This document shows positions 40,747 through 52,876 of a stretch of 64,000 nucleotides of DNA, one piece after another. Numbering within the stretch: position 1 is the first letter of the stretch; each line of letters begins with the position of its first letter. The DNA lies in NCBI GenBank assembly GCA_944358675.1, contig CALVRN010000002.1, forward strand, positions 43,955-107,954, written 5' to 3'. A program made the position numbers and the translations under genes. The notes under the pieces were generated by a model, which was not told the DNA's origin, made no database searches, and saw only the letters and a program-made list of their open reading frames with translations. Origin of the DNA: an uncultured Bacilli bacterium (GTDB taxonomy: Bacteria > Bacillota_I > Bacilli_A > RF39 > UBA660).

Positions 40747-40749
40747 AAA

Positions 40750-40876
40750 AATGTATATTGAAAGGCGATAATCTGTGTGGAAAGCAGGGAGTCATATATT
40801 AAAGAGAGATTCTTCTAGAATAAATAAGGTGGAACCGCGGTAATACCGTCCTTATATATTGCTAGGAGTTTTTTTA
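40750..40876 (+). promoter_or_regulatory. T-box leader upstream of glyQS (compact)
   Basis: AAGGTGGAACCGCGG (40826-40840) matches the T-box sequence. T7 run at 40869-40875. GTGGAAAGCAGGGAG resembles a Stem I distal loop. A GGC triplet lies in GAAAGGCGA at 40760-40768. Confidence 0.7.
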
Positions 40877-44663: not shown

Positions 44664-45068
44664 ATGGGTTTAATAAAAAAAATCATGGGTGAAGAAGAAG
44701 ATGTTTTTGCTGCACCATCAAATGATCAATACTATGATTTAAAAGCGGAGGAAGCTCTAACAGAAGAAGGCGGAGCTAAAATGATTTTATTAGAACCAAG
44801 AGCTTACTCTGAATCACAGCAAATAGCTGATCACTTAAAGAAAAGAAATACTGTTGTTGTTAACTTAAAAAGAGTTACCCCTGAACAAGCAAAAAGAATA
44901 GTTGATTTCTTAAGTGGTACAATTTATGCAATTGGTGGGGATTTGCAAAAAATTGGTGGTGGAATTTTCTTATGTACACCAAATAACGTTAGTGTTCAAG
45001 GAAAAATAACTAATGATACTGAAGGAAAAGGTATTCACGATAACAATAATATAGATATAGAGTGGTAA
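44664..45068 (+). CDS. sepF: cell division protein SepF
   Basis: [28 protein letters not shown]...[17 protein letters not shown]. Confidence 0.85.
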
Positions 45069-45108: not shown

Positions 45109-45588
45109 ATGGAAAAATTTACAAGAGTCATGAGAGGTTATGATCCTGATGAAGTCAACAACTTTTTAGATCAAGTTATCAAAAGGGTCGAAAAAATGAT
45201 AGCTGACATAGATGCTAAAAACAAATTAATTGTCGATAAAAATGATGAAATTAGACGTTTAAAATCAAAATTAGAAGAAACAAATGCCCTAAAAGAAAAA
45301 CTCGAACAATATGAACGTATGGAAAGCACTTTAAATAGGGCAATCCTAATGGCTCAAAAGACCTCAGATCAATTAAAAGTTGCTGCTAGTCGTGAAAGCG
45401 AAATAATTATAGATGATGCTAAGAAAAATGCAAGTAGAATTGTCAATGATGCTTTAATGAAAGCTGAAAAAATAGAAAACGATGCTGACATGGTAAAAAG
45501 AAACATTAATGTTTTAAAACGTAGGCTTAAAAACATCATTGAATCACAACTTGACATTATAAATGACATTGATAAATTAGATATATAA
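45109..45588 (+). CDS. divIVA: DivIVA-domain cell division protein
   Basis: FTRVMRGYDPDEVNNFLDQV followed by coiled coil. Confidence 0.8.
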   Translation: MEKFTRVMRGYDPDEVNNFLDQVIKRVEKMIADIDAKNKLIVDKNDEIRRLKSKLEETNALKEKLEQYERMESTLNRAILMAQKTSDQLKVAASRESEIIIDDAKKNASRIVNDALMKAEKIENDADMVKRNINVLKRRLKNIIESQLDIINDIDKLDI

Positions 45589-45619
45589 AAGCAAAAGATA
45601 GAGACGTTATATTAAACAA

Positions 45620-45802
45620 AAGTTTAAAGAGAGTTAGTGGCGGGTGAGAACTAATAACTTTTTAATATATGGATCACTCTTGATGCTTCTTTTTGAAACA
45701 AAGTAAATAAGAACGGTAACGCGTTATAGTTATTAAGTGTATTTTTAAAATAAAATAAGGTGGTACCGCGGGAAAACTCGTCCTTAAATAGGACGTTTTT
45801 TT
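45620..45802 (+). promoter_or_regulatory. T-box riboswitch, isoleucine specifier (AUC)
   Basis: AAAGAGAG (45626-45633). ATC followed by A, then CTCT pairing back to AGAG (specifier 45673-45675). T-box AAGGTGGTACCGCGG (45757-45771). Terminator CGTCCT-5 nt-AGGACG plus T7 (45779-45802). Confidence 0.85.
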
Positions 45803-45859
45803 GTTGATTTCATTGTGAAAATAATACCTATATGCTATAATAAAAAGAAGGTGAATGAA

Positions 45860-46591
45860 ATGTTTAAATATAAAGATATTAATATAAATTATATAAGATA
45901 TGGAAACATAGAAAAACAGTCAGTCGTTTTATTACATGGCTGGGGACAAAATATTGAAATGATGAAACCAGTAGGCGATAGTTTAACAGATAACGATGTT
46001 ATTATAATAGATTTACCAGGTCATGGTAAAAGTGAAGAACCAAAAGAAGTATGGGAACTTAAAGATTTTGTAGAAATGATTCACGAATTACTTAAAACCT
46101 TAAATATTCAAAATCCAATCTTAATTGGTCATTCATTTGGTGGTAAATTAAGTTTATTATATGCGAGTATGTATCCAGTAAAAAAACTAATCCTATTTGG
46201 TAGCCCATTTAAAGTTAAGAAAAATCCAAATAGTTTAAAAGTAAAAACATTAAAAAAATTAAAAACCTTACCTGGATTAAAAAACATAGCTGAAATAATG
46301 AAAAAACATATAGGCTCTACTGATTATAGAAATGCAAGTCCAATGATGAGAGATATATTAGTAAAACATGTCAATACAGACATCACAGAAAATGTAAAAA
46401 AAATAACTTGTCCAACTATAATTATATGGGGAACTAACGATGCCGCTGTACCAATCACAGATGCATATGATTTAGAAAAATTAATCAAAGATTCAGCTGT
46501 AATTCCATATGAAGGCTGTACACATTATGCCTATTTAGAAAGACTAGGGCAAACTAATTCCATAATTAAAAACTTTATAAAGGAGAGGTAA
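45860..46591 (+). CDS. alpha/beta-fold hydrolase
   Basis: LLHGWGQN and GHSFGG nucleophile elbow. The ATG at 45860 follows RBS AAGGTGA; the track GTG start at 45815 is unlikely. Confidence 0.75.
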   Translation: MFKYKDININYIRYGNIEKQSVVLLHGWGQNIEMMKPVGDSLTDNDVIIIDLPGHGKSEEPKEVWELKDFVEMIHELLKTLNIQNPILIGHSFGGKLSLLYASMYPVKKLILFGSPFKVKKNPNSLKVKTLKKLKTLPGLKNIAEIMKKHIGSTDYRNASPMMRDILVKHVNTDITENVKKITCPTIIIWGTNDAAVPITDAYDLEKLIKDSAVIPYEGCTHYAYLERLGQTNSIIKNFIKER

Positions 46592-46592
46592 T

Positions 46593-48191
46593 ATGACCAA
46601 AGAATTTTTAATATCAGTCATTATCTATTTTATTTATGTTTTTTTAAAAAGTGGAGATTCAATGCATATGCTTCAGCAAAACAAATACAATAGAAAAAAA
46701 ACATACCTAAAATGGATAGCTAAAAATCCTACCAAAACCTTTAAAGATTATAGTATATTTTTCTTAGTATTAATAATATTTATTTTCTTTAATAATTTAC
46801 CATTATTAATGTTATGCTTTAACTTTATATATTTAGTTCTAATAGTTAACTTAATTTTAGAAAGAAAAAAATCACAAAATAAATTACCACTTAAATATAC
46901 AGCTAGAGTAAAAAGATTAGTTTTCACAAATACTATTGTCATATTATTACCAATTATTATTATGAGCTTCTTTGTAAATGAGACAAATTTAGTATACTTT
47001 TATTTAGTTTTAGGTTTAATAGCTTATTTAAATAGTATTTACATATTAATAGCTTTATTAATAAATACACCGGTAGAAAGCTTAGTTGGACTATATTTTA
47101 AACAAAAAGCTATAGCTAAAATCAAAAACATGAAATCATTAAAGGTAATAGGTATTACTGGAAGTTATGGAAAAACAAGCAGTAAAAACATTTTAAATGA
47201 CATATTAAATATCAAATATAATTCCATGCCAACCCCCAAAAACTTTAATACACCATTTGGTCTAATGATAACAATAAACAATTACTTAGATAAATTTACC
47301 GATGTCTTCATAGCCGAAATGGGTGCATGTCAAGAAGGGGATATCAAAGAACTTTGTGACTTAGTTCATCCAAAATATGGAATAATCACAAAAATAGGTG
47401 TAGCCCATCTTGCTACATTTGGCTCTAGAGAAAACATTCAAAAAACAAAATTCGAATTAATTGAATCTTTACCATCAGATGGAGTTGGAATCTTAAATGG
47501 CGATGATGAATGGCAAAGAAGTTATAAAATAAAAAACAACTGTAAAATAAAATGGATCGGTATAGATAGTATAGATGTTGATATCAGAGCTACAAACATT
47601 ACCTTAAGTCCAAGTGGTACTAAATTCGATTGTTATTTTAAAGGTGATAACAAACCATATCCATTTGAAACTAGATTACTTGGATATAACAATGTTTATA
47701 ACATTTTAGCTGGCATCGCTTTAGGTAGAGAATTTGGTATGTCTATCGAACAATTAAAGGCTGGTGTCGCTAAAGTAAAACCAGTTGAGCATCGCCTAGA
47801 ACTTAAAAAAAATGGCGATATTACAATTATTGATGATGCCTATAATTCAAATCCTACAGGAGCCAAAATGGCTTTGGATGTTTTAAAACTAATGCCTGGA
47901 AAACATATTGTTGTAACTCCAGGAATGATTGAACTAGGTTCAGAAGAATATCAAAAAAACAAAGAGTTTGGTAATCAAATAGCTGAAAGTGCTGATGAAG
48001 TAATATTAGTTGGTGCTGAAAAAACTAAACCAATATTAGAAGGCTTAAAAGAAAAAGGTTATGATGAAAATAAAATTCATATAATAAACGATGTCTTGAA
48101 AGCTTTTCCATTAATTCAAGAATTAAAAGAAAATGAAACTTATGTGTTATTAGAAAATGATTTACCAGATATATTCAATGAGAAGGAGTGA
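46593..48191 (+). CDS. murF: MurF-type Mur ligase with polytopic N-terminal membrane domain
   Basis: GITGSYGKTS P-loop at about residue 190, and IDDAYNSNPTGAKMALDVL. The first ~165 aa are about five hydrophobic helices instead of the usual MurF domain 1. Confidence 0.7.
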   Translation: MTKEFLISVIIYFIYVFLKSGDSMHMLQQNKYNRKKTYLKWIAKNPTKTFKDYSIFFLVLIIFIFFNNLPLLMLCFNFIYLVLIVNLILERKKSQNKLPLKYTARVKRLVFTNTIVILLPIIIMSFFVNETNLVYFYLVLGLIAYLNSIYILIALLINTPVESLVGLYFKQKAIAKIKNMKSLKVIGITGSYGKTSSKNILNDILNIKYNSMPTPKNFNTPFGLMITINNYLDKFTDVFIAEMGACQEGDIKELCDLVHPKYGIITKIGVAHLATFGSRENIQKTKFELIESLPSDGVGILNGDDEWQRSYKIKNNCKIKWIGIDSIDVDIRATNITLSPSGTKFDCYFKGDNKPYPFETRLLGYNNVYNILAGIALGREFGMSIEQLKAGVAKVKPVEHRLELKKNGDITIIDDAYNSNPTGAKMALDVLKLMPGKHIVVTPGMIELGSEEYQKNKEFGNQIAESADEVILVGAEKTKPILEGLKEKGYDENKIHIINDVLKAFPLIQELKENETYVLLENDLPDIFNEKE

Positions 48192-48197
48192 TTTATT

Positions 48198-49394
48198 ATG
48201 ATAAAAGTTGGAGTTATTTTTGGTGGAGATTCAGTTGAACATGAAGTAAGTATAATCTCTGCCTTGCAAGCAATGGAAAATATTGATGAAGAAAAATATG
48301 AAATAATACCAATCTATATAAGTAAGGACCGCCATTTTTATACTGGTGCCGCTTTAAGAGATATGGAAACTTATAAGTACTTTGATAACATGAAAAAATT
48401 TGTCAAAGAAATAACAATTTGTAGAAAAGGTAACGACATTGTCTTACAAAAAATAAAAGGATTCTTTGGAAGAAATGTTAATACAATTGATGTAGCTTTT
48501 CCAATAGTTCACGGAAAAGGTGTTGAAGATGGCTCATTATCTGGATTCTTAGAAACATTAGGACTTCCAGTTGTTGGACCTTCAGTACTAGGTGCAGCTT
48601 TAGGACAAGATAAAGTAGTATTAAAACAAGTCCTAGAAGCCAATAACATTAAAACTCCTAAATATACATGGTTCTACGATTATGAATATAACATGGATAA
48701 AGATAAAATAATTAAAAACATCGAAACTTTAGGTTATCCTGTAATTGTAAAACCAGCTAATTTAGGTAGTACCATTGGTATAGGAGTTGCCCATAATCAA
48801 AGTGAATTAGTAAAGGCAATTGAAGAAGCATTGGAATATGAAAAGAAAATAGTTGTTGAAGAAATGATACCAAATTTATTAGAATTAAACTGTGCAGTAT
48901 GTGGTAACTATGAATATTCAGAAACTAGTTTAATTGCCGAAATGAAAATGAAACACGAACTATTAACCTTCGAAGATAAATATTTAGGAGGATCTAAAGG
49001 AAAAGGCATGAAAACATCTGGAAAAATGCCAAATTCAATGTCTACTAGTGAATTTGAAGTTCCCGCAAACATTCCAGAAGAGATGACTAATAAAATTTAT
49101 GAAATATCAAAACAAGTATTTAGAGTACTAAATTTAAAAGGTGTTTGCCGTATAGATTATCTAGTAAATAGAGAAACTGGTGAAATATACGTTAATGAAC
49201 CAAATACAATACCAGGTTCACTCGCATTCTATCTATATAAACCAAAAGGAAAAGATTATAAAACATTAACTGATGAATTAATTAAATCAGCTATTAAAGA
49301 TTATAAAAATGAAATGCATAAAACATCTAGTTTCACTTCAAATATTTTAAGTGAATATAATGGAAGTAAAGGATTTAAAAAAGGAGCAAACTAA
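48198..49394 (+). CDS. ddl: D-alanine--D-alanine ligase family (ATP-grasp)
   Basis: VGVIFGGDSVEHEVSIISA, ATP-grasp core, NEPNTIPG. Confidence 0.85.
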   Translation: MIKVGVIFGGDSVEHEVSIISALQAMENIDEEKYEIIPIYISKDRHFYTGAALRDMETYKYFDNMKKFVKEITICRKGNDIVLQKIKGFFGRNVNTIDVAFPIVHGKGVEDGSLSGFLETLGLPVVGPSVLGAALGQDKVVLKQVLEANNIKTPKYTWFYDYEYNMDKDKIIKNIETLGYPVIVKPANLGSTIGIGVAHNQSELVKAIEEALEYEKKIVVEEMIPNLLELNCAVCGNYEYSETSLIAEMKMKHELLTFEDKYLGGSKGKGMKTSGKMPNSMSTSEFEVPANIPEEMTNKIYEISKQVFRVLNLKGVCRIDYLVNRETGEIYVNEPNTIPGSLAFYLYKPKGKDYKTLTDELIKSAIKDYKNEMHKTSSFTSNILSEYNGSKGFKKGAN

Positions 49395-49410
49395 AAGGGA
49401 GATGTATTTT

Positions 49411-52140
49411 ATGGATTATAAAGACACATTATTAATGCCAAAAACAGAATTTAAAATGCGTGGTAATTTGGCTGAAAATGAAGTTAAACAGCGCATGGAA
49501 TGGGATGAAATGGATTTATATAATCTAATCAAAAATAAAAATAAGAATAATAAACCATTCATCTTACACGATGGTCCACCTTATGCGAATGGTAATATCC
49601 ATCTAGGCCATTCTTTAAATAAAATTTTAAAAGATTTCATCAACCGCTCTAAAATGATGGAAGGATACTATGTTGAATATATTCCAGGATGGGATACTCA
49701 TGGACTACCAATTGAACAAGCCGTAACTAATAGTGGTGTTGATAGAAAGAAAATGACAGTAGCCCAGTTTAGAGAATATTGTAAAGAGTATGCTTTAAAA
49801 CAAGTAGAAACCCAAATGGATGACTTCAAAAGACTAAATGTCATTGCTGACTGGGATAACCCTTATATCACATTAAACCCAGAATATGAAGCAAGACAAA
49901 TAGAAGTATTTGCTAAAATGGCAGGGAAAGGATTAATCTTCCAAGGATTGAAACCAGTTTATTGGTCTCCAAGTAGTGAAACTGCTTTAGCTGAAGCTGA
50001 AATTGAATATAAAGATAAAACTGATCCATCAATCTATGTCGCATTTACTATAACCGAAGGAAATGATTATGTAGATGAAGGAGATAAATTAGTTATATGG
50101 ACAACAACACCATGGACATTACCTGGTAATATGGGTGTTTGTGTTGGACCAAACTTCGAATATTCTAAAGTAAAAGTAGGGGATAACAACTATATTGTCG
50201 CAACTGATTTATTAGATAATTTAATGCAAGAATTTGAATTTACAAACTATGAAAAATTATCTACCTTTAAAGGCACAGATTTAGAAAATGTAAAATATAG
50301 TCATCCATTTATGGATAGAATCTCACCCGTAGTGACTGCTGACCATGTAACTTTAGATGCTGGAACTGGTTTAGTACACACCGCTCCATCATATGGTGAA
50401 GATGATTTTAATGTTGGAAAAAAATATAACCTAGGAATGGTAAATGGAGTAAATGACCAAGGCATTTTAACTGAAGAATCAGGAATATTTGCAGGTTTAT
50501 CAGTAGAAGAAGCTAATAAAGAAATTCCAAAATGGTTAAATGAAAATGGATATTTATTAAAATTAAAGAAAATTACCCACTCATATCCACATGACTGGAG
50601 AACAAAAAAACCAATCATCTTTAGAGCCACTAAACAATGGTTCTGTAGTGTTGATAAAATAAGAGATGAAATTTTAAACGAATTAGATACAAATGTTAAA
50701 TTTCATACAGACTGGGGTAAAACAAGAATTTACAACATGATTAAAGATAGGGGAGACTGGTGTATTTCAAGACAAAGAGCTTGGGGTGTACCTATTCCAA
50801 TTTTCTATAATGAAGATGGCACACCTATTATTGATTATGATGTTATGATGCATGTTGCTTCATTATTTAGAAAACACGGTTCAAATATCTGGTTTGAAAA
50901 AGAAGCTAAAGACTTACTTCCAAAAGGATATACTAATCCAGCAAGTCCAAATGGTAACTTTAAAAAAGAAACAGATATTATGGATGTGTGGTTTGATTCT
51001 GGAACATCATGGGCTGGAACTTTATTAGAAAGAAAATTACCATACCCAGCTGATGTATACCTAGAAGGTTCAGATCAATATCGTGGATGGTTTAATTCAT
51101 CATTAATTTGTAGTATGGCTTATAGTGGTCATAGTCCATATAAAGAATTAGTATCAGCTGGATTTGTCTTAGATGGTAAAGGATTTAAGATGAGTAAAAG
51201 TATTGGTAACATCGTAAGACCAATGGATGTTGTAGGTAAACAAGGCGCTGATATTTTAAGACTATGGGTGGCTAGTGTAGACTATACAGAAGATGTTAGA
51301 TTCAGTGATGAATTACTTGCTGGAGTTAAAGAATCATATAGAAAAATTAGAAACACATATAGATTTATGTTAGGAAATTTATTTGACTTTAACCCAGACT
51401 CTGACAAAGTATCTTATGATAAATTACCAGTTTCTGATAGATATATGTTAATCGAATTAAATGACATCATTCAAAAAGTAATTAAAGAATATGATAATTA
51501 TAACTTTGATGAAATTTATAAAATAATCAATAATTATGTAAATTCATTATCTAATTTCTATTTAGATTATACAAAAGACATTTTATACATAGAAAAAGCT
51601 GATAGTGATGAAAGAAGAAGTGTTCAAACTGTTTTATATGAAATCTTAACTTCATTAATCAAATTAATGGCTCCAATTTTACCTTATACTAGCGAAGAAG
51701 TTTACAAATTACTTCCAGGTAAAAAAGAGAAAAGTGTTCATTTAGAAAACTTCCCAGAAGTAAAAACATACAAAGATGAAATTGAAATAAAAGAAATGTT
51801 TGATTTATTCTTTGGAATTAAAAATGATGTCTATAAAGCTTTAGAAGAAGCTAGAAATGAAAAAATCATTGGTAAATCATTAGAAGCCAAAGTATTCTTA
51901 AAATTACGTGATGAAGATAAAGAAACATTAAAACCAATTTTAACAAAATTAAAACAATTATTTATTGTATCAGATGTTATCTTAACTCCAGAAGAACTTA
52001 CAAAATATGAATATTGTGAAGTTAAAGTTCAAAAATTCGATGGAGAAAGATGTGAAAGATGTTGGAATTACTTTAATGAAATTGATCTAACAGATCAGTT
52101 ATGTCCAAGATGTCATGAAATCGTAAATGAAGAAAACTAG
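49411..52140 (+). CDS. ileS: isoleucyl-tRNA synthetase
   Basis: MDYKDTLLMPKTEFKMRGNL, HLGH, KMSKS, and a C-terminal CxxC...CxxC zinc finger. The start is taken at 49411, not the longer track ORF. Confidence 0.95.
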   Translation: MDYKDTLLMPKTEFKMRGNLAENEVKQRMEWDEMDLYNLIKNKNKNNKPFILHDGPPYANGNIHLGHSLNKILKDFINRSKMMEGYYVEYIPGWDTHGLPIEQAVTNSGVDRKKMTVAQFREYCKEYALKQVETQMDDFKRLNVIADWDNPYITLNPEYEARQIEVFAKMAGKGLIFQGLKPVYWSPSSETALAEAEIEYKDKTDPSIYVAFTITEGNDYVDEGDKLVIWTTTPWTLPGNMGVCVGPNFEYSKVKVGDNNYIVATDLLDNLMQEFEFTNYEKLSTFKGTDLENVKYSHPFMDRISPVVTADHVTLDAGTGLVHTAPSYGEDDFNVGKKYNLGMVNGVNDQGILTEESGIFAGLSVEEANKEIPKWLNENGYLLKLKKITHSYPHDWRTKKPIIFRATKQWFCSVDKIRDEILNELDTNVKFHTDWGKTRIYNMIKDRGDWCISRQRAWGVPIPIFYNEDGTPIIDYDVMMHVASLFRKHGSNIWFEKEAKDLLPKGYTNPASPNGNFKKETDIMDVWFDSGTSWAGTLLERKLPYPADVYLEGSDQYRGWFNSSLICSMAYSGHSPYKELVSAGFVLDGKGFKMSKSIGNIVRPMDVVGKQGADILRLWVASVDYTEDVRFSDELLAGVKESYRKIRNTYRFMLGNLFDFNPDSDKVSYDKLPVSDRYMLIELNDIIQKVIKEYDNYNFDEIYKIINNYVNSLSNFYLDYTKDILYIEKADSDERRSVQTVLYEILTSLIKLMAPILPYTSEEVYKLLPGKKEKSVHLENFPEVKTYKDEIEIKEMFDLFFGIKNDVYKALEEARNEKIIGKSLEAKVFLKLRDEDKETLKPILTKLKQLFIVSDVILTPEELTKYEYCEVKVQKFDGERCERCWNYFNEIDLTDQLCPRCHEIVNEEN

Positions 52141-52161
52141 TTCAAAAATGAACTAGTTTTT
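52137..52161. terminator. bidirectional terminator between ileS and sigK
   Basis: CTAGTTCA-AAAA-TGAACTAG 8-bp stem, with T5 on the + strand and an A-run on the other side. Confidence 0.75.
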
Positions 52162-52183: not shown

Positions 52184-52876
52184 CTAACTATTTTTATTTT
52201 TAATAAATTCCCTAAGCATCTTTGTTAATGCTCTTTTTTCTATTCTTGAAACATAACTTCTAGATATTCCAAGTTCTTTCGCAATCTCTTTTTGAGTAAT
52301 TTCATCATTACCATATAATCCATATCTCTTAATAATAATCTCTTTTTCTCTATCAGTCAAAACATTAAAATATTTCTTTAATAACTTGACACTATCCTTT
52401 ATATGTATATCTAAAGCATAATCAGGCTTATCAGTTTTCAAAATATCCAAAAAAGTAATTGCATTTCCTTCTTTATCAAAACCAATAGGCTCATCAATAC
52501 TAATATTTTTATTATTTTTCTTATCAGACCTAAAAAACATCAATATTTCATTTTCAATACATCTCGCACAGTAGGTTGTAAGCCTAGTTTTGTGTTTAAA
52601 AGAATAACTATCAACACCTTTAATTAAACCTATAGTTCCAATACTAATTAAATCATCTGCCATCTCTGAACTATGATCATACTTTTTAACAATATGAGCA
52701 ACTAATCTTAAATTGTGTTCAATAAGCTTATTTCTTGCCTCCATATCACCCATATTTGCTAGCTTAATATATTTTTCCTCATCCTCCTTAGATAAGGGAT
52801 CAGGAAAAACATTATTAGAATAAGATGCTGTAAAAAGATAAAAATCTTTAAATAGCTTTTTTAAAAATTCAAACAT
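52184..52876 (-). CDS. sigK: sporulation sigma factor SigK (uninterrupted, with pro-sequence)
   Basis: NNVFPDPLSKEDEEKYI...ARNKLIEHNLRLVAHIVKKY...LISIGTIGLIKG...CIENEILM...ELGISRSYVSRIEKRAL closely parallels B. subtilis SigK. Confidence 0.88.
   Translation of the reverse strand: MFEFLKKLFKDFYLFTASYSNNVFPDPLSKEDEEKYIKLANMGDMEARNKLIEHNLRLVAHIVKKYDHSSEMADDLISIGTIGLIKGVDSYSFKHKTRLTTYCARCIENEILMFFRSDKKNNKNISIDEPIGFDKEGNAITFLDILKTDKPDYALDIHIKDSVKLLKKYFNVLTDREKEIIIKRYGLYGNDEITQKEIAKELGISRSYVSRIEKRALTKMLREFIKNKNS

What the first reader, a model, noticed from the sequence alone, without database searches (positions are those of the whole stretch)
45620..52140. Ile-specific T-box separated from ileS by three inserted genes (hydrolase, membrane MurF, Ddl)
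Seen: a complete T-box leader with an AUC(A) specifier (45673-45676), a T-box sequence (45757-45771) and a strong terminator (45779-45802) lies directly after divIVA, which is exactly where B. subtilis has the ileS leader. Here, however, ileS starts 3.6 kb later (49411). Between them sit an alpha/beta hydrolase, a MurF-type ligase and a Ddl-type ligase, with gaps of 1, 6 and 16 nt and no second leader before ileS. A TTGTGA-17-TGcTATAAT promoter-like element (45813-45841) also lies downstream of the T-box terminator. Inference: either peptidoglycan precursor genes have been placed under uncharged-tRNA-Ile control, or the internal promoter bypasses the riboswitch and ileS regulation has been partly uncoupled. 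Both would be unusual.
Basis: partly seen in the sequence, partly recalled or inferred. Interest (0 to 1): 0.6.

Follow-up and report, generated by a model that had tools for sequence, protein, structure and literature searches.

The report
Ile T-box, cell-wall cassette, then ileS
A genuine isoleucine-sensing T-box riboswitch is separated from its tRNA-synthetase gene by three inserted cell-wall genes that have their own conserved promoter, and related species show the riboswitch control being eroded step by step.

Summary
An Ile (AUC-A) T-box leader (45586-45788, Rfam 108 bits) follows divIVA. It is followed by a terminator, a TGcTATAAT promoter (P2), an alpha/beta hydrolase, a membrane-anchored MurF-type ligase, Ddl and then ileS1, with no second leader.

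Across about 45 related genomes (uncultured gut Bacilli, CAG-822 / Ca. Coprosoma group):
- The ancestral layout is divIVA, T-box, ileS1.
- The hydrolase-MurF-Ddl unit is a conserved, self-promoted cassette found elsewhere in other families.
- In one clade the cassette sits exactly between the terminator U-tract and the ileS1 ribosome-binding site.
- P2 is present in 26 of 26 cassette-bearing loci.
- The T-box upstream of the cassette is still under selection: 15 compensatory pairs and an invariant specifier.
- The T-box was reduced to a bare terminator at least twice, in species whose only ileS lies behind it. P2 must therefore be sufficient.
- The cassette was later deleted at least twice, leaving P2 in front of ileS1.
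- This genome also carries a T-box-controlled ileS2 about 11 kb upstream of the window.

Best reading: a dual-input operon. P2 gives basal expression and tRNA-Ile-dependent read-through adds a boost, so control of the cell-wall genes is incidental. This is a new variant of a known kind, of moderate interest.

The parts
44664..45068 (+). sepF
   Evidence: PF04472 SepF, E 1.5e-29. It is part of the conserved sepF-divIVA-(T-box)-ileS1 synteny.
45109..45588 (+). divIVA. Its stop codon lies 2 nt before the first T-box model position.
   Evidence: PF05103 DivIVA, E 5.9e-29; sequence.
45551..45578 (+). Candidate leader promoter P1 (TTGACA-16-TAAATT with TG), inside the divIVA coding end. Not supported by conservation.
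   Evidence: Consensus scan. The -35 hexamer is not conserved in sister species (TTAGAA, TTAGAT, TTACAA). The leader may instead be read through from divIVA.
45586..45788 (+). T-box leader. Specifier AUC at 45673-45675 (+A 45676), T-box sequence at 45757-45771, antiterminator bulge UGGU.
   Evidence: RF00230 at 108.3 bits against a threshold of 93. 15 compensatory pairs among 17 species. tRNA-Ile(GAU) with discriminator A73 is present in the genome.
45779..45802 (+). Intrinsic terminator of the T-box. It probably also terminates the divIVA transcript.
   Evidence: The hairpin and U-tract are kept in G018, G003 and G006, which lost the sensing part of the T-box; G005 has a different hairpin and U-run in its place.
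45813..45841 (+). P2, an extended -10 promoter (TTGTGA-17-TGcTATAAT), 18 nt before the hydrolase ATG. The AGGTGA ribosome-binding site is at 45849-45854.
   Evidence: TGnTATAAT is present in 26 of 26 cassette-bearing loci, 15-26 nt before the start codon, while the surrounding spacer is unalignable. It is the only promoter candidate for the sole ileS in T-box-less species.
45860..46591 (+). Alpha/beta-fold hydrolase (243 aa), first gene of the cassette. Substrate unknown.
   Evidence: PF00561 and PF12146. Only weak matches to named NCBIfam equivalogs (EstV 140 bits against a cutoff of 300). PDB relatives are lipases and esterases. It is linked to the MurF-like gene in many families.
46593..48191 (+). 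Membrane-anchored MurF-type ligase (532 aa). About 4-5 hydrophobic helices occupy residues 1-170, in place of MurF domain 1. The Mur ligase middle and C-terminal domains follow.
   Evidence: PF08245 and PF02875. TIGR01143 scores 241 bits, below its cutoff of 288.6. Residues 175-476 align to E. coli MurF 1gg4 residues 92-393. Hydropathy analysis.
48198..49394 (+). D-alanine--D-alanine ligase (398 aa). It is the only ddl found in this assembly.
   Evidence: NF002528 scores 281 against a cutoff of 262, and TIGR01205 scores 247.5 against 245.65. It is the single tblastn hit in the genome.
49411..52140 (+). ileS1, type 1 isoleucyl-tRNA synthetase (909 aa). HLGH at residue 64, KMSKS at 593, C-terminal zinc finger.
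   Evidence: TIGR00392 scores 992 bits against a cutoff of 621. Motifs. The conserved ribosome-binding site AAGGAGATG sits directly after whichever gene precedes it.
52132..52161 (.). Bidirectional terminator hairpin shared by ileS1 and the convergent sigK gene.
52184..52876 (-). sigK, the conserved right-hand neighbour of ileS1.
   Evidence: NF004471 scores 310 bits against a cutoff of 252. Synteny.

Best explanation
This is a composite, dual-input operon.

Ancestral state. ileS1 lay 15-30 nt behind an Ile-specific T-box, which itself starts right after divIVA.

The insertion. In an ancestor of part of this genus, a self-contained cell-wall cassette landed between the terminator U-tract and the ileS1 ribosome-binding site. 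The cassette comprised the P2 promoter, an alpha/beta hydrolase, a membrane MurF-type ligase and Ddl, and at first also an M14 peptidase.

How it works today in this genome:
- P2 gives tRNA-independent expression of hydrolase, murF, ddl and ileS1.
- Uncharged tRNA-Ile(GAU) stabilises the antiterminator of the upstream T-box. Transcripts arriving from the divIVA side then read through and add to the operon's expression.
- The peptidoglycan genes are therefore boosted, not gated, by Ile starvation. This coupling is a by-product of where the cassette landed.
- A second, directly T-box-controlled synthetase gene (ileS2) supplies an undiluted Ile-starvation response.

Shown here: the anatomy, the homologies, the conservation patterns and the order of evolutionary events.
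Inferred: that P2 fires, that read-through occurs, and their relative strengths.
For: 1. The T-box is real and Ile-specific. The genome's tRNA-Ile(GAU) has A73, matching the UGGU bulge.
2. The ancestral layout sepF-divIVA-T-box-ileS1-sigK is seen in 10 cassette-less genus members and in other families.
3. The cassette is a unit. Hydrolase and MurF, mostly with Ddl, are linked at other loci in about 10 other families or genera. There the cassette usually has its own TGnTATAAT promoter and follows an upstream terminator.
4. P2 occurs in 26 of 26 cassette-bearing loci at a fixed distance from the start codon, within otherwise unalignable spacer.
5. P2 is sufficient. G018, G003, G006 and G005 have no T-box. 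In G018, G003 and G006 only its terminator hairpin remains, and G005 has a different terminator-like hairpin; the gap is 127-174 nt. They have a single ileS, which lies behind that terminator.
6. The T-box is still selected after the insertion. Among 17 cassette-bearing species, 94% of cells are paired and 15 pairs have changes on both sides. Shuffled controls give 6.3 and slid registers give 1-3. The ATC specifier and the T-box sequence are invariant.
7. The T-box was lost at least twice on the MurF tree.
8. The cassette was later deleted at least twice. G015/G001 and G021/G004 are nested in the cassette clade on the ileS1 tree (support 100/99). An AU test rejects cassette monophyly at p 1e-37. 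These species keep T-box, P2 and, clearly in G015/G001, a remnant of the hydrolase ribosome-binding site and 5' end in front of ileS1.
9. ileS1 always abuts the preceding gene, and no intervening terminator is present.
10. ileS2 with its own AUC T-box is in this genome.
Against: - There are no transcript data.
- Promoter-like hexamers are at chance frequency in this AT-rich DNA.
- A promoter for the T-box leader itself could not be established. The P1 -35 hexamer is not conserved.
- The phylogeny of events rests on one locus (the ileS1 and MurF trees), and the AU-test grouping was defined after the tree had been seen.
- Most genomes are incomplete MAGs (68-94% complete). Absences of ileS2 or ddl in single genomes are therefore soft evidence.
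Confidence: 0.75

Rival explanations
1. The T-box in this genome is a functionless relic. Transcripts from upstream always terminate at 45802, and all expression of the four genes comes from P2.
For: Sister species do without the T-box entirely. P2 is universally conserved. This genome has ileS2 under a direct T-box.
Against: The leader scores 108 bits with an intact specifier, T-box sequence and antiterminator. Among cassette-bearing species it shows 15 compensatory pairs and invariant functional motifs, while the adjacent spacer has diverged beyond alignment. That pattern indicates purifying selection acting after the insertion.
Confidence: 0.13
2. The T-box is the main switch for the whole operon. 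P2 is only a chance AT-rich match, so murF, ddl and ileS1 are genuinely gated by uncharged tRNA-Ile.
For: The T-box is intact and conserved. Hexamer matches are at chance level in this DNA. In G019 a Na/Ca-exchanger gene inserted at the same junction has no room for a promoter and must be T-box-gated.
Against: TGnTATAAT occurs in 26 of 26 loci at a fixed distance. Four genomes have a bare terminator followed by P2 in front of their only ileS. P2 is retained in front of ileS1 after the cassette was deleted. The only ddl of the genome would be shut off whenever Ile is plentiful.
Confidence: 0.05
3. ileS1 has its own promoter inside the 3' end of ddl (TTCACT-18-TATAAT, 49332-49361). It would then be transcriptionally independent of both the T-box and P2.
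For: The consensus scan gives 10 of 12 matches. The TATAAT is present in many sister species.
Against: The motif coincides with conserved Ddl codons (E-Y-N). It is absent where an M14 peptidase gene or its remnant separates ddl from ileS1, yet ileS1 there still abuts the preceding stop codon with the same ribosome-binding site.
Confidence: 0.07

Closest known systems
The divIVA-[Ile T-box]-ileS arrangement of Bacillus subtilis and Staphylococcus aureus. T-box control of ileS is conserved in at least 29 of 34 Firmicutes (PMC2494555, which cites Grundy et al. 1997).
   Same: The same leader family, the same AUC specifier logic, the same position after divIVA and the same terminator/antiterminator mechanism.
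   Different: Here 3.6 kb of unrelated cell-wall genes with their own promoter lie between the terminator and ileS1. The leader starts 2 nt after the divIVA stop codon.
The ileS1/ileS2 pair of Priestia megaterium, both preceded by T-box elements (bioRxiv 10.1101/2022.02.09.479832).
   Same: Two IleRS types in one genome, each behind an Ile T-box. ileS1 is also served by a constitutive promoter.
   Different: That paper reports the coexistence as apparently unique to Bacillaceae, whereas this is an uncultured reduced-genome gut lineage. Here ileS1 is the fourth gene of a cell-wall operon. The ileS2 here carries the GXHH (GLHH) variant of the signature motif.
T-box operons in which the synthetase is not the first gene. 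The cysteine and asparagine ligase genes are often the second gene of the operon (PMC2494555).
   Same: The leader is separated from the aaRS gene by another gene.
   Different: In those cases the intervening genes belong to the same amino-acid pathway. Here they are peptidoglycan precursor genes and bring a bypass promoter.
ddl-murF operons of Firmicutes such as S. aureus and streptococci (from my own knowledge, not tested here).
   Same: Ddl and the D-Ala-D-Ala-adding ligase are co-transcribed.
   Different: The order is murF-ddl. The unit is preceded by a hydrolase gene. The MurF has a polytopic membrane N-terminus in place of domain 1.

Membership tests
T-box leader (Rfam RF00230), transcriptional class | Covariance-model score over the curated threshold across the full model | tested here: met
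   108.3 bits against 93, model positions 1-219.
T-box leader (Rfam RF00230), transcriptional class | Stem I specifier loop with a codon followed by a purine, matching a tRNA of the organism | tested here: met
   AUC plus A at 45673-45676, at the model's specifier position. tRNA-Ile(GAU) is present. ATC is invariant in 17 species.
T-box leader (Rfam RF00230), transcriptional class | Conserved T-box sequence with a UGGN bulge complementary to the tRNA N73-CCA end | tested here: met
   AAGGUGGUACCGCGG is present. The bulge UGGU pairs with A73-CCA of tRNA-Ile.
T-box leader (Rfam RF00230), transcriptional class | Mutually exclusive antiterminator and intrinsic terminator | tested here: met
   The terminator at 45779-45802 shares its 5' arm with the 3' strand of the antiterminator.
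T-box leader (Rfam RF00230), transcriptional class | tRNA-dependent antitermination actually occurs | not testable with these tools
   This needs in vitro transcription or reporter assays.
MurF, UDP-MurNAc-tripeptide--D-Ala-D-Ala ligase (TIGR01143) | Whole-protein score over the curated cutoff, including N-terminal domain 1 | tested here: not met
   241.4 bits against a cutoff of 288.6. The match covers profile positions 65-402 only. Residues 1-170 are hydrophobic helices.
MurF, UDP-MurNAc-tripeptide--D-Ala-D-Ala ligase (TIGR01143) | Closest to MurF among Mur ligases, with the central ATP-binding and C-terminal domains present | tested here: met
   MurF is the best NCBIfam and PDB match (1gg4, E 9.5e-37), ahead of MurE, MurC and MurD. 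It is the only MurF-like gene in 8 peptidoglycan-positive related families.
D-alanine--D-alanine ligase | Score over the curated cutoffs. The D-Ala-D-Ala type scores better than the D-Lac and D-Ser types. | tested here: met
   NF002528 scores 281 against 262. TIGR01205 scores 247.5 against 245.65. The Van-type models are all far below their cutoffs.
IleRS type 1 | ileS equivalog score, HxGH and KMSKS motifs, C-terminal zinc finger | tested here: met
   TIGR00392 scores 992 against 621. HLGH at residue 64, KMSKS at 593. PF06827 is present.
IleRS type 2 (the second copy, outside the window) | About 1030 aa, full-length alignment to the MupA/MupB-type models, about 33% identity to IleRS1 | tested here: met
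   1031 aa. TIGR00392 scores 910 bits. It aligns over residues 15-1023 to MupA, scoring 901 bits, which is below the resistance-allele cutoff of 1900. It is 33% identical to ileS1.

The most novel reading that the evidence does not exclude
The coupling is adaptive rather than incidental. Under isoleucine limitation, T-box read-through would be the major source of transcripts for the genome's only Ddl and the membrane MurF. D-Ala-D-Ala addition to the cell-wall precursor would then be tuned to the charging state of tRNA-Ile, which would be a direct riboswitch link between translation capacity and wall synthesis in a reduced-genome gut symbiont.
Probability: 0.1. Interest if true: 0.65.

Novelty: new variant of a known kind. 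Interest (0 to 1): 0.4.

Why it matters
T-box leaders are normally treated as reliable indicators of what the next gene does, and as tight switches. This locus shows both assumptions failing. Annotation pipelines that transfer "Ile-related" from the specifier to the downstream genes would mislabel a hydrolase, a MurF and a Ddl.

The set of sister species forms a natural series for how riboswitch control decays:
1. A promoter-bearing cassette inserts.
2. Control becomes dual.
3. The sensor is deleted while its terminator is kept.
4. Or the cassette is deleted while its promoter is kept.

The series also shows that T-box control of the only ileS gene is dispensable in some members of this lineage. 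All of this concerns an uncultured organism and rests on comparative inference, so its reach is moderate.

Tried and rejected
- Public RNA-seq or metatranscriptome evidence was sought with the look-up of sequencing runs.
- A leader promoter P1 (45551-45578) was considered. Its -35 hexamer is not conserved in sister species, so it is left as unsupported.
- An ileS1-specific promoter in the ddl 3' end (49332-49361) is explained by conserved Ddl codons. It is absent where another gene intervenes.
- Recent horizontal arrival of the cassette was checked by composition. No G+C or skew anomaly was found across 45800-49400, and the insertion is shared by species down to about 70% protein identity, so it is old.
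- A functional link between Ile and these wall genes (tRNA-dependent cross-bridge formation) was considered. Nothing in the cassette is a Fem-type transferase.
- The hydrolase could not be assigned a substrate. It gives only generic lipase, esterase and meta-cleavage hydrolase matches.
- Literature searches for a membrane-anchored MurF, or for T-box leaders followed by bypass promoters, found nothing specific.
Full report
**1. What is in the window**

Rfam finds exactly one family in the 64 kb. It is a full-length T-box leader at 45586-45788 (+), scoring 108.3 bits against a gathering score of 93.

- The leader begins 2 nt after the divIVA stop codon (divIVA is 45109-45588; sepF is 44664-45068).
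- At the model's specifier position the sequence reads GG-AUC-A, closed by the AGAG/CUCU helix.
- The T-box sequence AAGGUGGUACCGCGG is at 45757-45771.
- The terminator CGTCCT-TAAAT-AGGACG plus T7 is at 45779-45802.
- The antiterminator bulge UGGU matches the A73-CCA end of the genome's tRNA-Ile(GAU).

Downstream features, in order:
- TTGTGA-17-TGcTATAAT at 45813-45841, called P2 here.
- An AGGTGA ribosome-binding site.
- A 243-aa alpha/beta hydrolase (45860-46591).
- A 532-aa Mur ligase (46593-48191).
- A 398-aa Ddl (48198-49394).
- A 909-aa type 1 IleRS (49411-52140).
- A bidirectional terminator (52132-52161) and the convergent sigK gene.

The gaps between the four genes are 1, 6 and 16 nt.

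**2. The three inserted genes**

- The ligase has Mur_ligase_M and Mur_ligase_C domains only. Its best family is MurF, at 241 bits, below the cutoff of 288.6. Its best solved relatives are all MurF; residues 175-476 align to E. coli MurF residues 92-393. Residues 1-170 are four to five hydrophobic helices.
- The Ddl passes two curated D-Ala-D-Ala ligase cutoffs. It is far below all D-Lac and D-Ser variant cutoffs.
- The hydrolase is generic.

In the window's own assembly (1.21 Mb, 85% complete) there is also a canonical 429-aa MurF (335 bits, over its cutoff), plus MurC, MurD and MurE. No second Ddl is present.

**3. The cassette is a conserved unit, and here it is an insertion**

Searching 40 relatives gave the following picture.

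- The membrane MurF type is found full-length (36-89% identity) in about half of the genus and in many other families of the class. It is almost always next to the hydrolase and mostly next to Ddl, and there it is not near divIVA or ileS.
- In those other contexts the hydrolase gene is usually preceded by its own TGnTATAAT and by a terminator of the upstream gene.
- In eight peptidoglycan-positive families (MraY present) this membrane MurF is the only MurF-like gene. One of these families is Turicibacter. The cassette is therefore best read as the D-Ala-D-Ala branch of those lineages, not as an oddity.
- Full-length relatives also occur in cultured Bacillales.
- The ancestral ileS1 locus in the genus and the class is sepF-divIVA-T-box-ileS1(-sigK). 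ileS1 starts 15-30 nt after the U-tract there.
- In 26 loci of one clade the cassette lies exactly between that U-tract and the conserved ileS1 ribosome-binding site AAGGAGATG. These are uncultured Bacilli, with record titles such as "Firmicutes bacterium CAG:822" and "Candidatus Coprosoma".
- Composition shows no anomaly, so the insertion is old.

**4. P2 is a real, sufficient promoter (inferred from conservation)**

TGnTATAAT is present in 26 of 26 cassette-bearing loci, 15-26 nt (mostly 17-19) before the hydrolase start. The spacer around it has diverged beyond alignment.

Four genomes of my set (G018, G003, G006, G005), and seven of 25 loci in the larger set, have no T-box between divIVA and the hydrolase. 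The gap there is only 127-174 nt. In three of the four genomes the terminator hairpin and U-run are still recognisable. These genomes have a single ileS. Their only IleRS gene therefore lies behind an unconditional terminator, with P2 as the only upstream promoter candidate.

**5. The T-box is still under selection where it is kept**

Seventeen leaders, all upstream of the cassette, were aligned and scored against the Rfam structure.
- 94% of cells are paired.
- 15 pairs have changes on both sides. Shuffles give 6.3 ± 1.7, with 0 of 500 reaching 15. Slid registers give 1-3.
- The ATC specifier, the T-box sequence and the antiterminator are invariant.

A relic would not behave like this.

**6. 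Order of events**

- On the MurF tree, T-box loss needs at least two events.
- On the ileS1 tree, the cassette-less species G015/G001 and G021/G004 are nested inside the cassette clade with 100/99 support. L088, which carries the cassette, is sister to G021/G004.
- The tree that holds all cassette loci together is rejected (AU p 1e-37). The caveat is that the grouping was named after the tree had been seen.
- Those four species have T-box, terminator and a P2 homologous to that of their cassette-bearing relatives. In G015/G001 a recognisable remnant of the hydrolase ribosome-binding site and first codons follows, fused to the ileS1 ribosome-binding site.
- The cassette was therefore deleted at least twice, and its promoter stayed behind in front of ileS1.
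- G001, G004 and G015 now have no ddl at all. G021 has a divergent cassette (about 50% identity) elsewhere.
- An M14 peptidase gene lies between ddl and ileS1 in G009 and G022. It is truncated in G018 and reduced to a roughly 90-nt remnant in L082.
- Independently, G019 has a Na/Ca-exchanger gene between the T-box and ileS1 with no room for a promoter. This junction has accepted foreign genes more than once.

**7. A second ileS**

At G000:C2:33162-36257, about 11 kb before the window, lies a 1031-aa type 2 IleRS.
- TIGR00392 scores 910 bits. The protein aligns full-length to the MupA/MupB-type models and is 33% identical to ileS1.
- It sits directly behind its own T-box (105.7 bits), with AUC at the same model position.
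- It lies among a large serine recombinase gene and other ORFs that, read by eye and not scanned against any library, look like AbiE-type and XRE-type genes.
- In the genus it was found only in G000, G020 and G013.
- Its signature motif is GLHH, the GXHH form linked to high mupirocin resistance in 10.1101/2023.01.31.526100.
- Coexistence of ileS1 and ileS2, each with a T-box, is described for Priestia megaterium and was thought to be essentially confined to Bacillaceae (10.1101/2022.02.09.479832).

**8. Mechanism proposed**

P2 provides tRNA-independent transcription of hydrolase-murF-ddl-ileS1. Transcripts coming from the divIVA side stop at 45802 unless uncharged tRNA-Ile stabilises the antiterminator. 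No conserved leader promoter was found. Read-through adds to P2 output. The wall genes are thus boosted, not gated, and this coupling is most simply a by-product of the insertion site.

Shown: anatomy, homology, conservation and the order of events.
Inferred: promoter activity, read-through and their ratio.

**9. Relation to earlier notes of this scan**

A follow-up on a sister genome (e1-761060) reached the same core reading, which I re-derived independently. New in this report:
- The repeated T-box losses that leave the terminator in place.
- The secondary cassette deletions that leave P2.
- The G019 insertion.
- ileS2 in this genome.
- The distribution of MurF, Ddl and MraY among relatives.

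**10. Verdict**

This is a new variant of a known kind (a T-box operon), of moderate interest as a natural series of riboswitch erosion and as a warning for specifier-based annotation.

Noticed in passing
G000:C2:32927-36257 (outside the window, about 11 to 7.7 kb before window position 1): There is a second isoleucyl-tRNA synthetase of type 2 (1031 aa) behind its own AUC T-box. Its signature motif is GLHH, the GXHH form associated with high mupirocin resistance. It sits among a large serine recombinase gene and ORFs that by eye look like AbiE-type and XRE-type genes. Coexistence of ileS1 and ileS2 was reported as nearly confined to Bacillaceae.
   Followed up: partly
Genomes G001, G004, G007, G010, G011, G014, G015, G017, G019 (same genus): Genus members without the cassette have no detectable ddl at all (E <= 1e-15). 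G013 also gave no ddl hit but, like G017, gave no canonical murF hit either. The other eight listed genomes keep a canonical murF, and all keep two mraY copies. Either D-Ala-D-Ala is scavenged, or their MurF uses another substrate. This fits the prediction of missing peptidoglycan steps in RF39-like orders (PMC10868615).
   Followed up: partly
window 46593-48191; L044-L052: The membrane-anchored MurF type is the only MurF-like gene in eight peptidoglycan-positive families of the class, including Turicibacter. Full-length relatives (43-50% identity) occur in cultured Bacillales such as Sinobaca, Alteribacillus, Salipaludibacillus and Paenibacillus. It is a widespread, uncharacterised MurF architecture.
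   Followed up: partly
G000:C30:94-331 (-); L101:1000-4900; L102: A high-scoring T-box (139-144 bits) with an apparent AAC (Asn) specifier lies inside a tRNA gene cluster. In the complete sister genomes it is followed by four tandem tRNA-Asn(GUU) genes and then two ORFs (497 and 485 aa) that read by eye as gatA and gatB. A T-box leader would thus sit directly upstream of tRNA genes.
   Followed up: partly
L060 (G019:C8), reverse strand, between the T-box and ileS1: A 319-aa Na+/Ca2+ exchanger family gene (PF01699) is inserted between the Ile T-box terminator and ileS1, only about 20 nt after the U-tract. This unrelated transporter appears to be fully gated by tRNA-Ile.
   Followed up: partly
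L034:4048-5501, L033:4868-6276, L037:5247-5879, L082:7736-7858: An M14-type zinc peptidase gene (462-468 aa) lies between ddl and ileS1 in some sister species. It is truncated or reduced to a remnant in others, and is absent from this window. In G005 an unassigned 308-aa gene lies between murF and ddl.
   Followed up: partly
G000:C2:1224-2144 and G000:C14:2372-3292: There are two mraY copies, both over the curated cutoff, in this genome and throughout the genus. In several relatives both flank the canonical murF within about 6 kb.
   Followed up: no
window 40749-40856: A short, sub-threshold T-box-like match (38.9 bits) lies 4.7 kb upstream of the leader studied here; another first-reader note places a compact glyQS T-box leader at this spot. 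It recurs at the same relative position in sister genomes.
   Followed up: no
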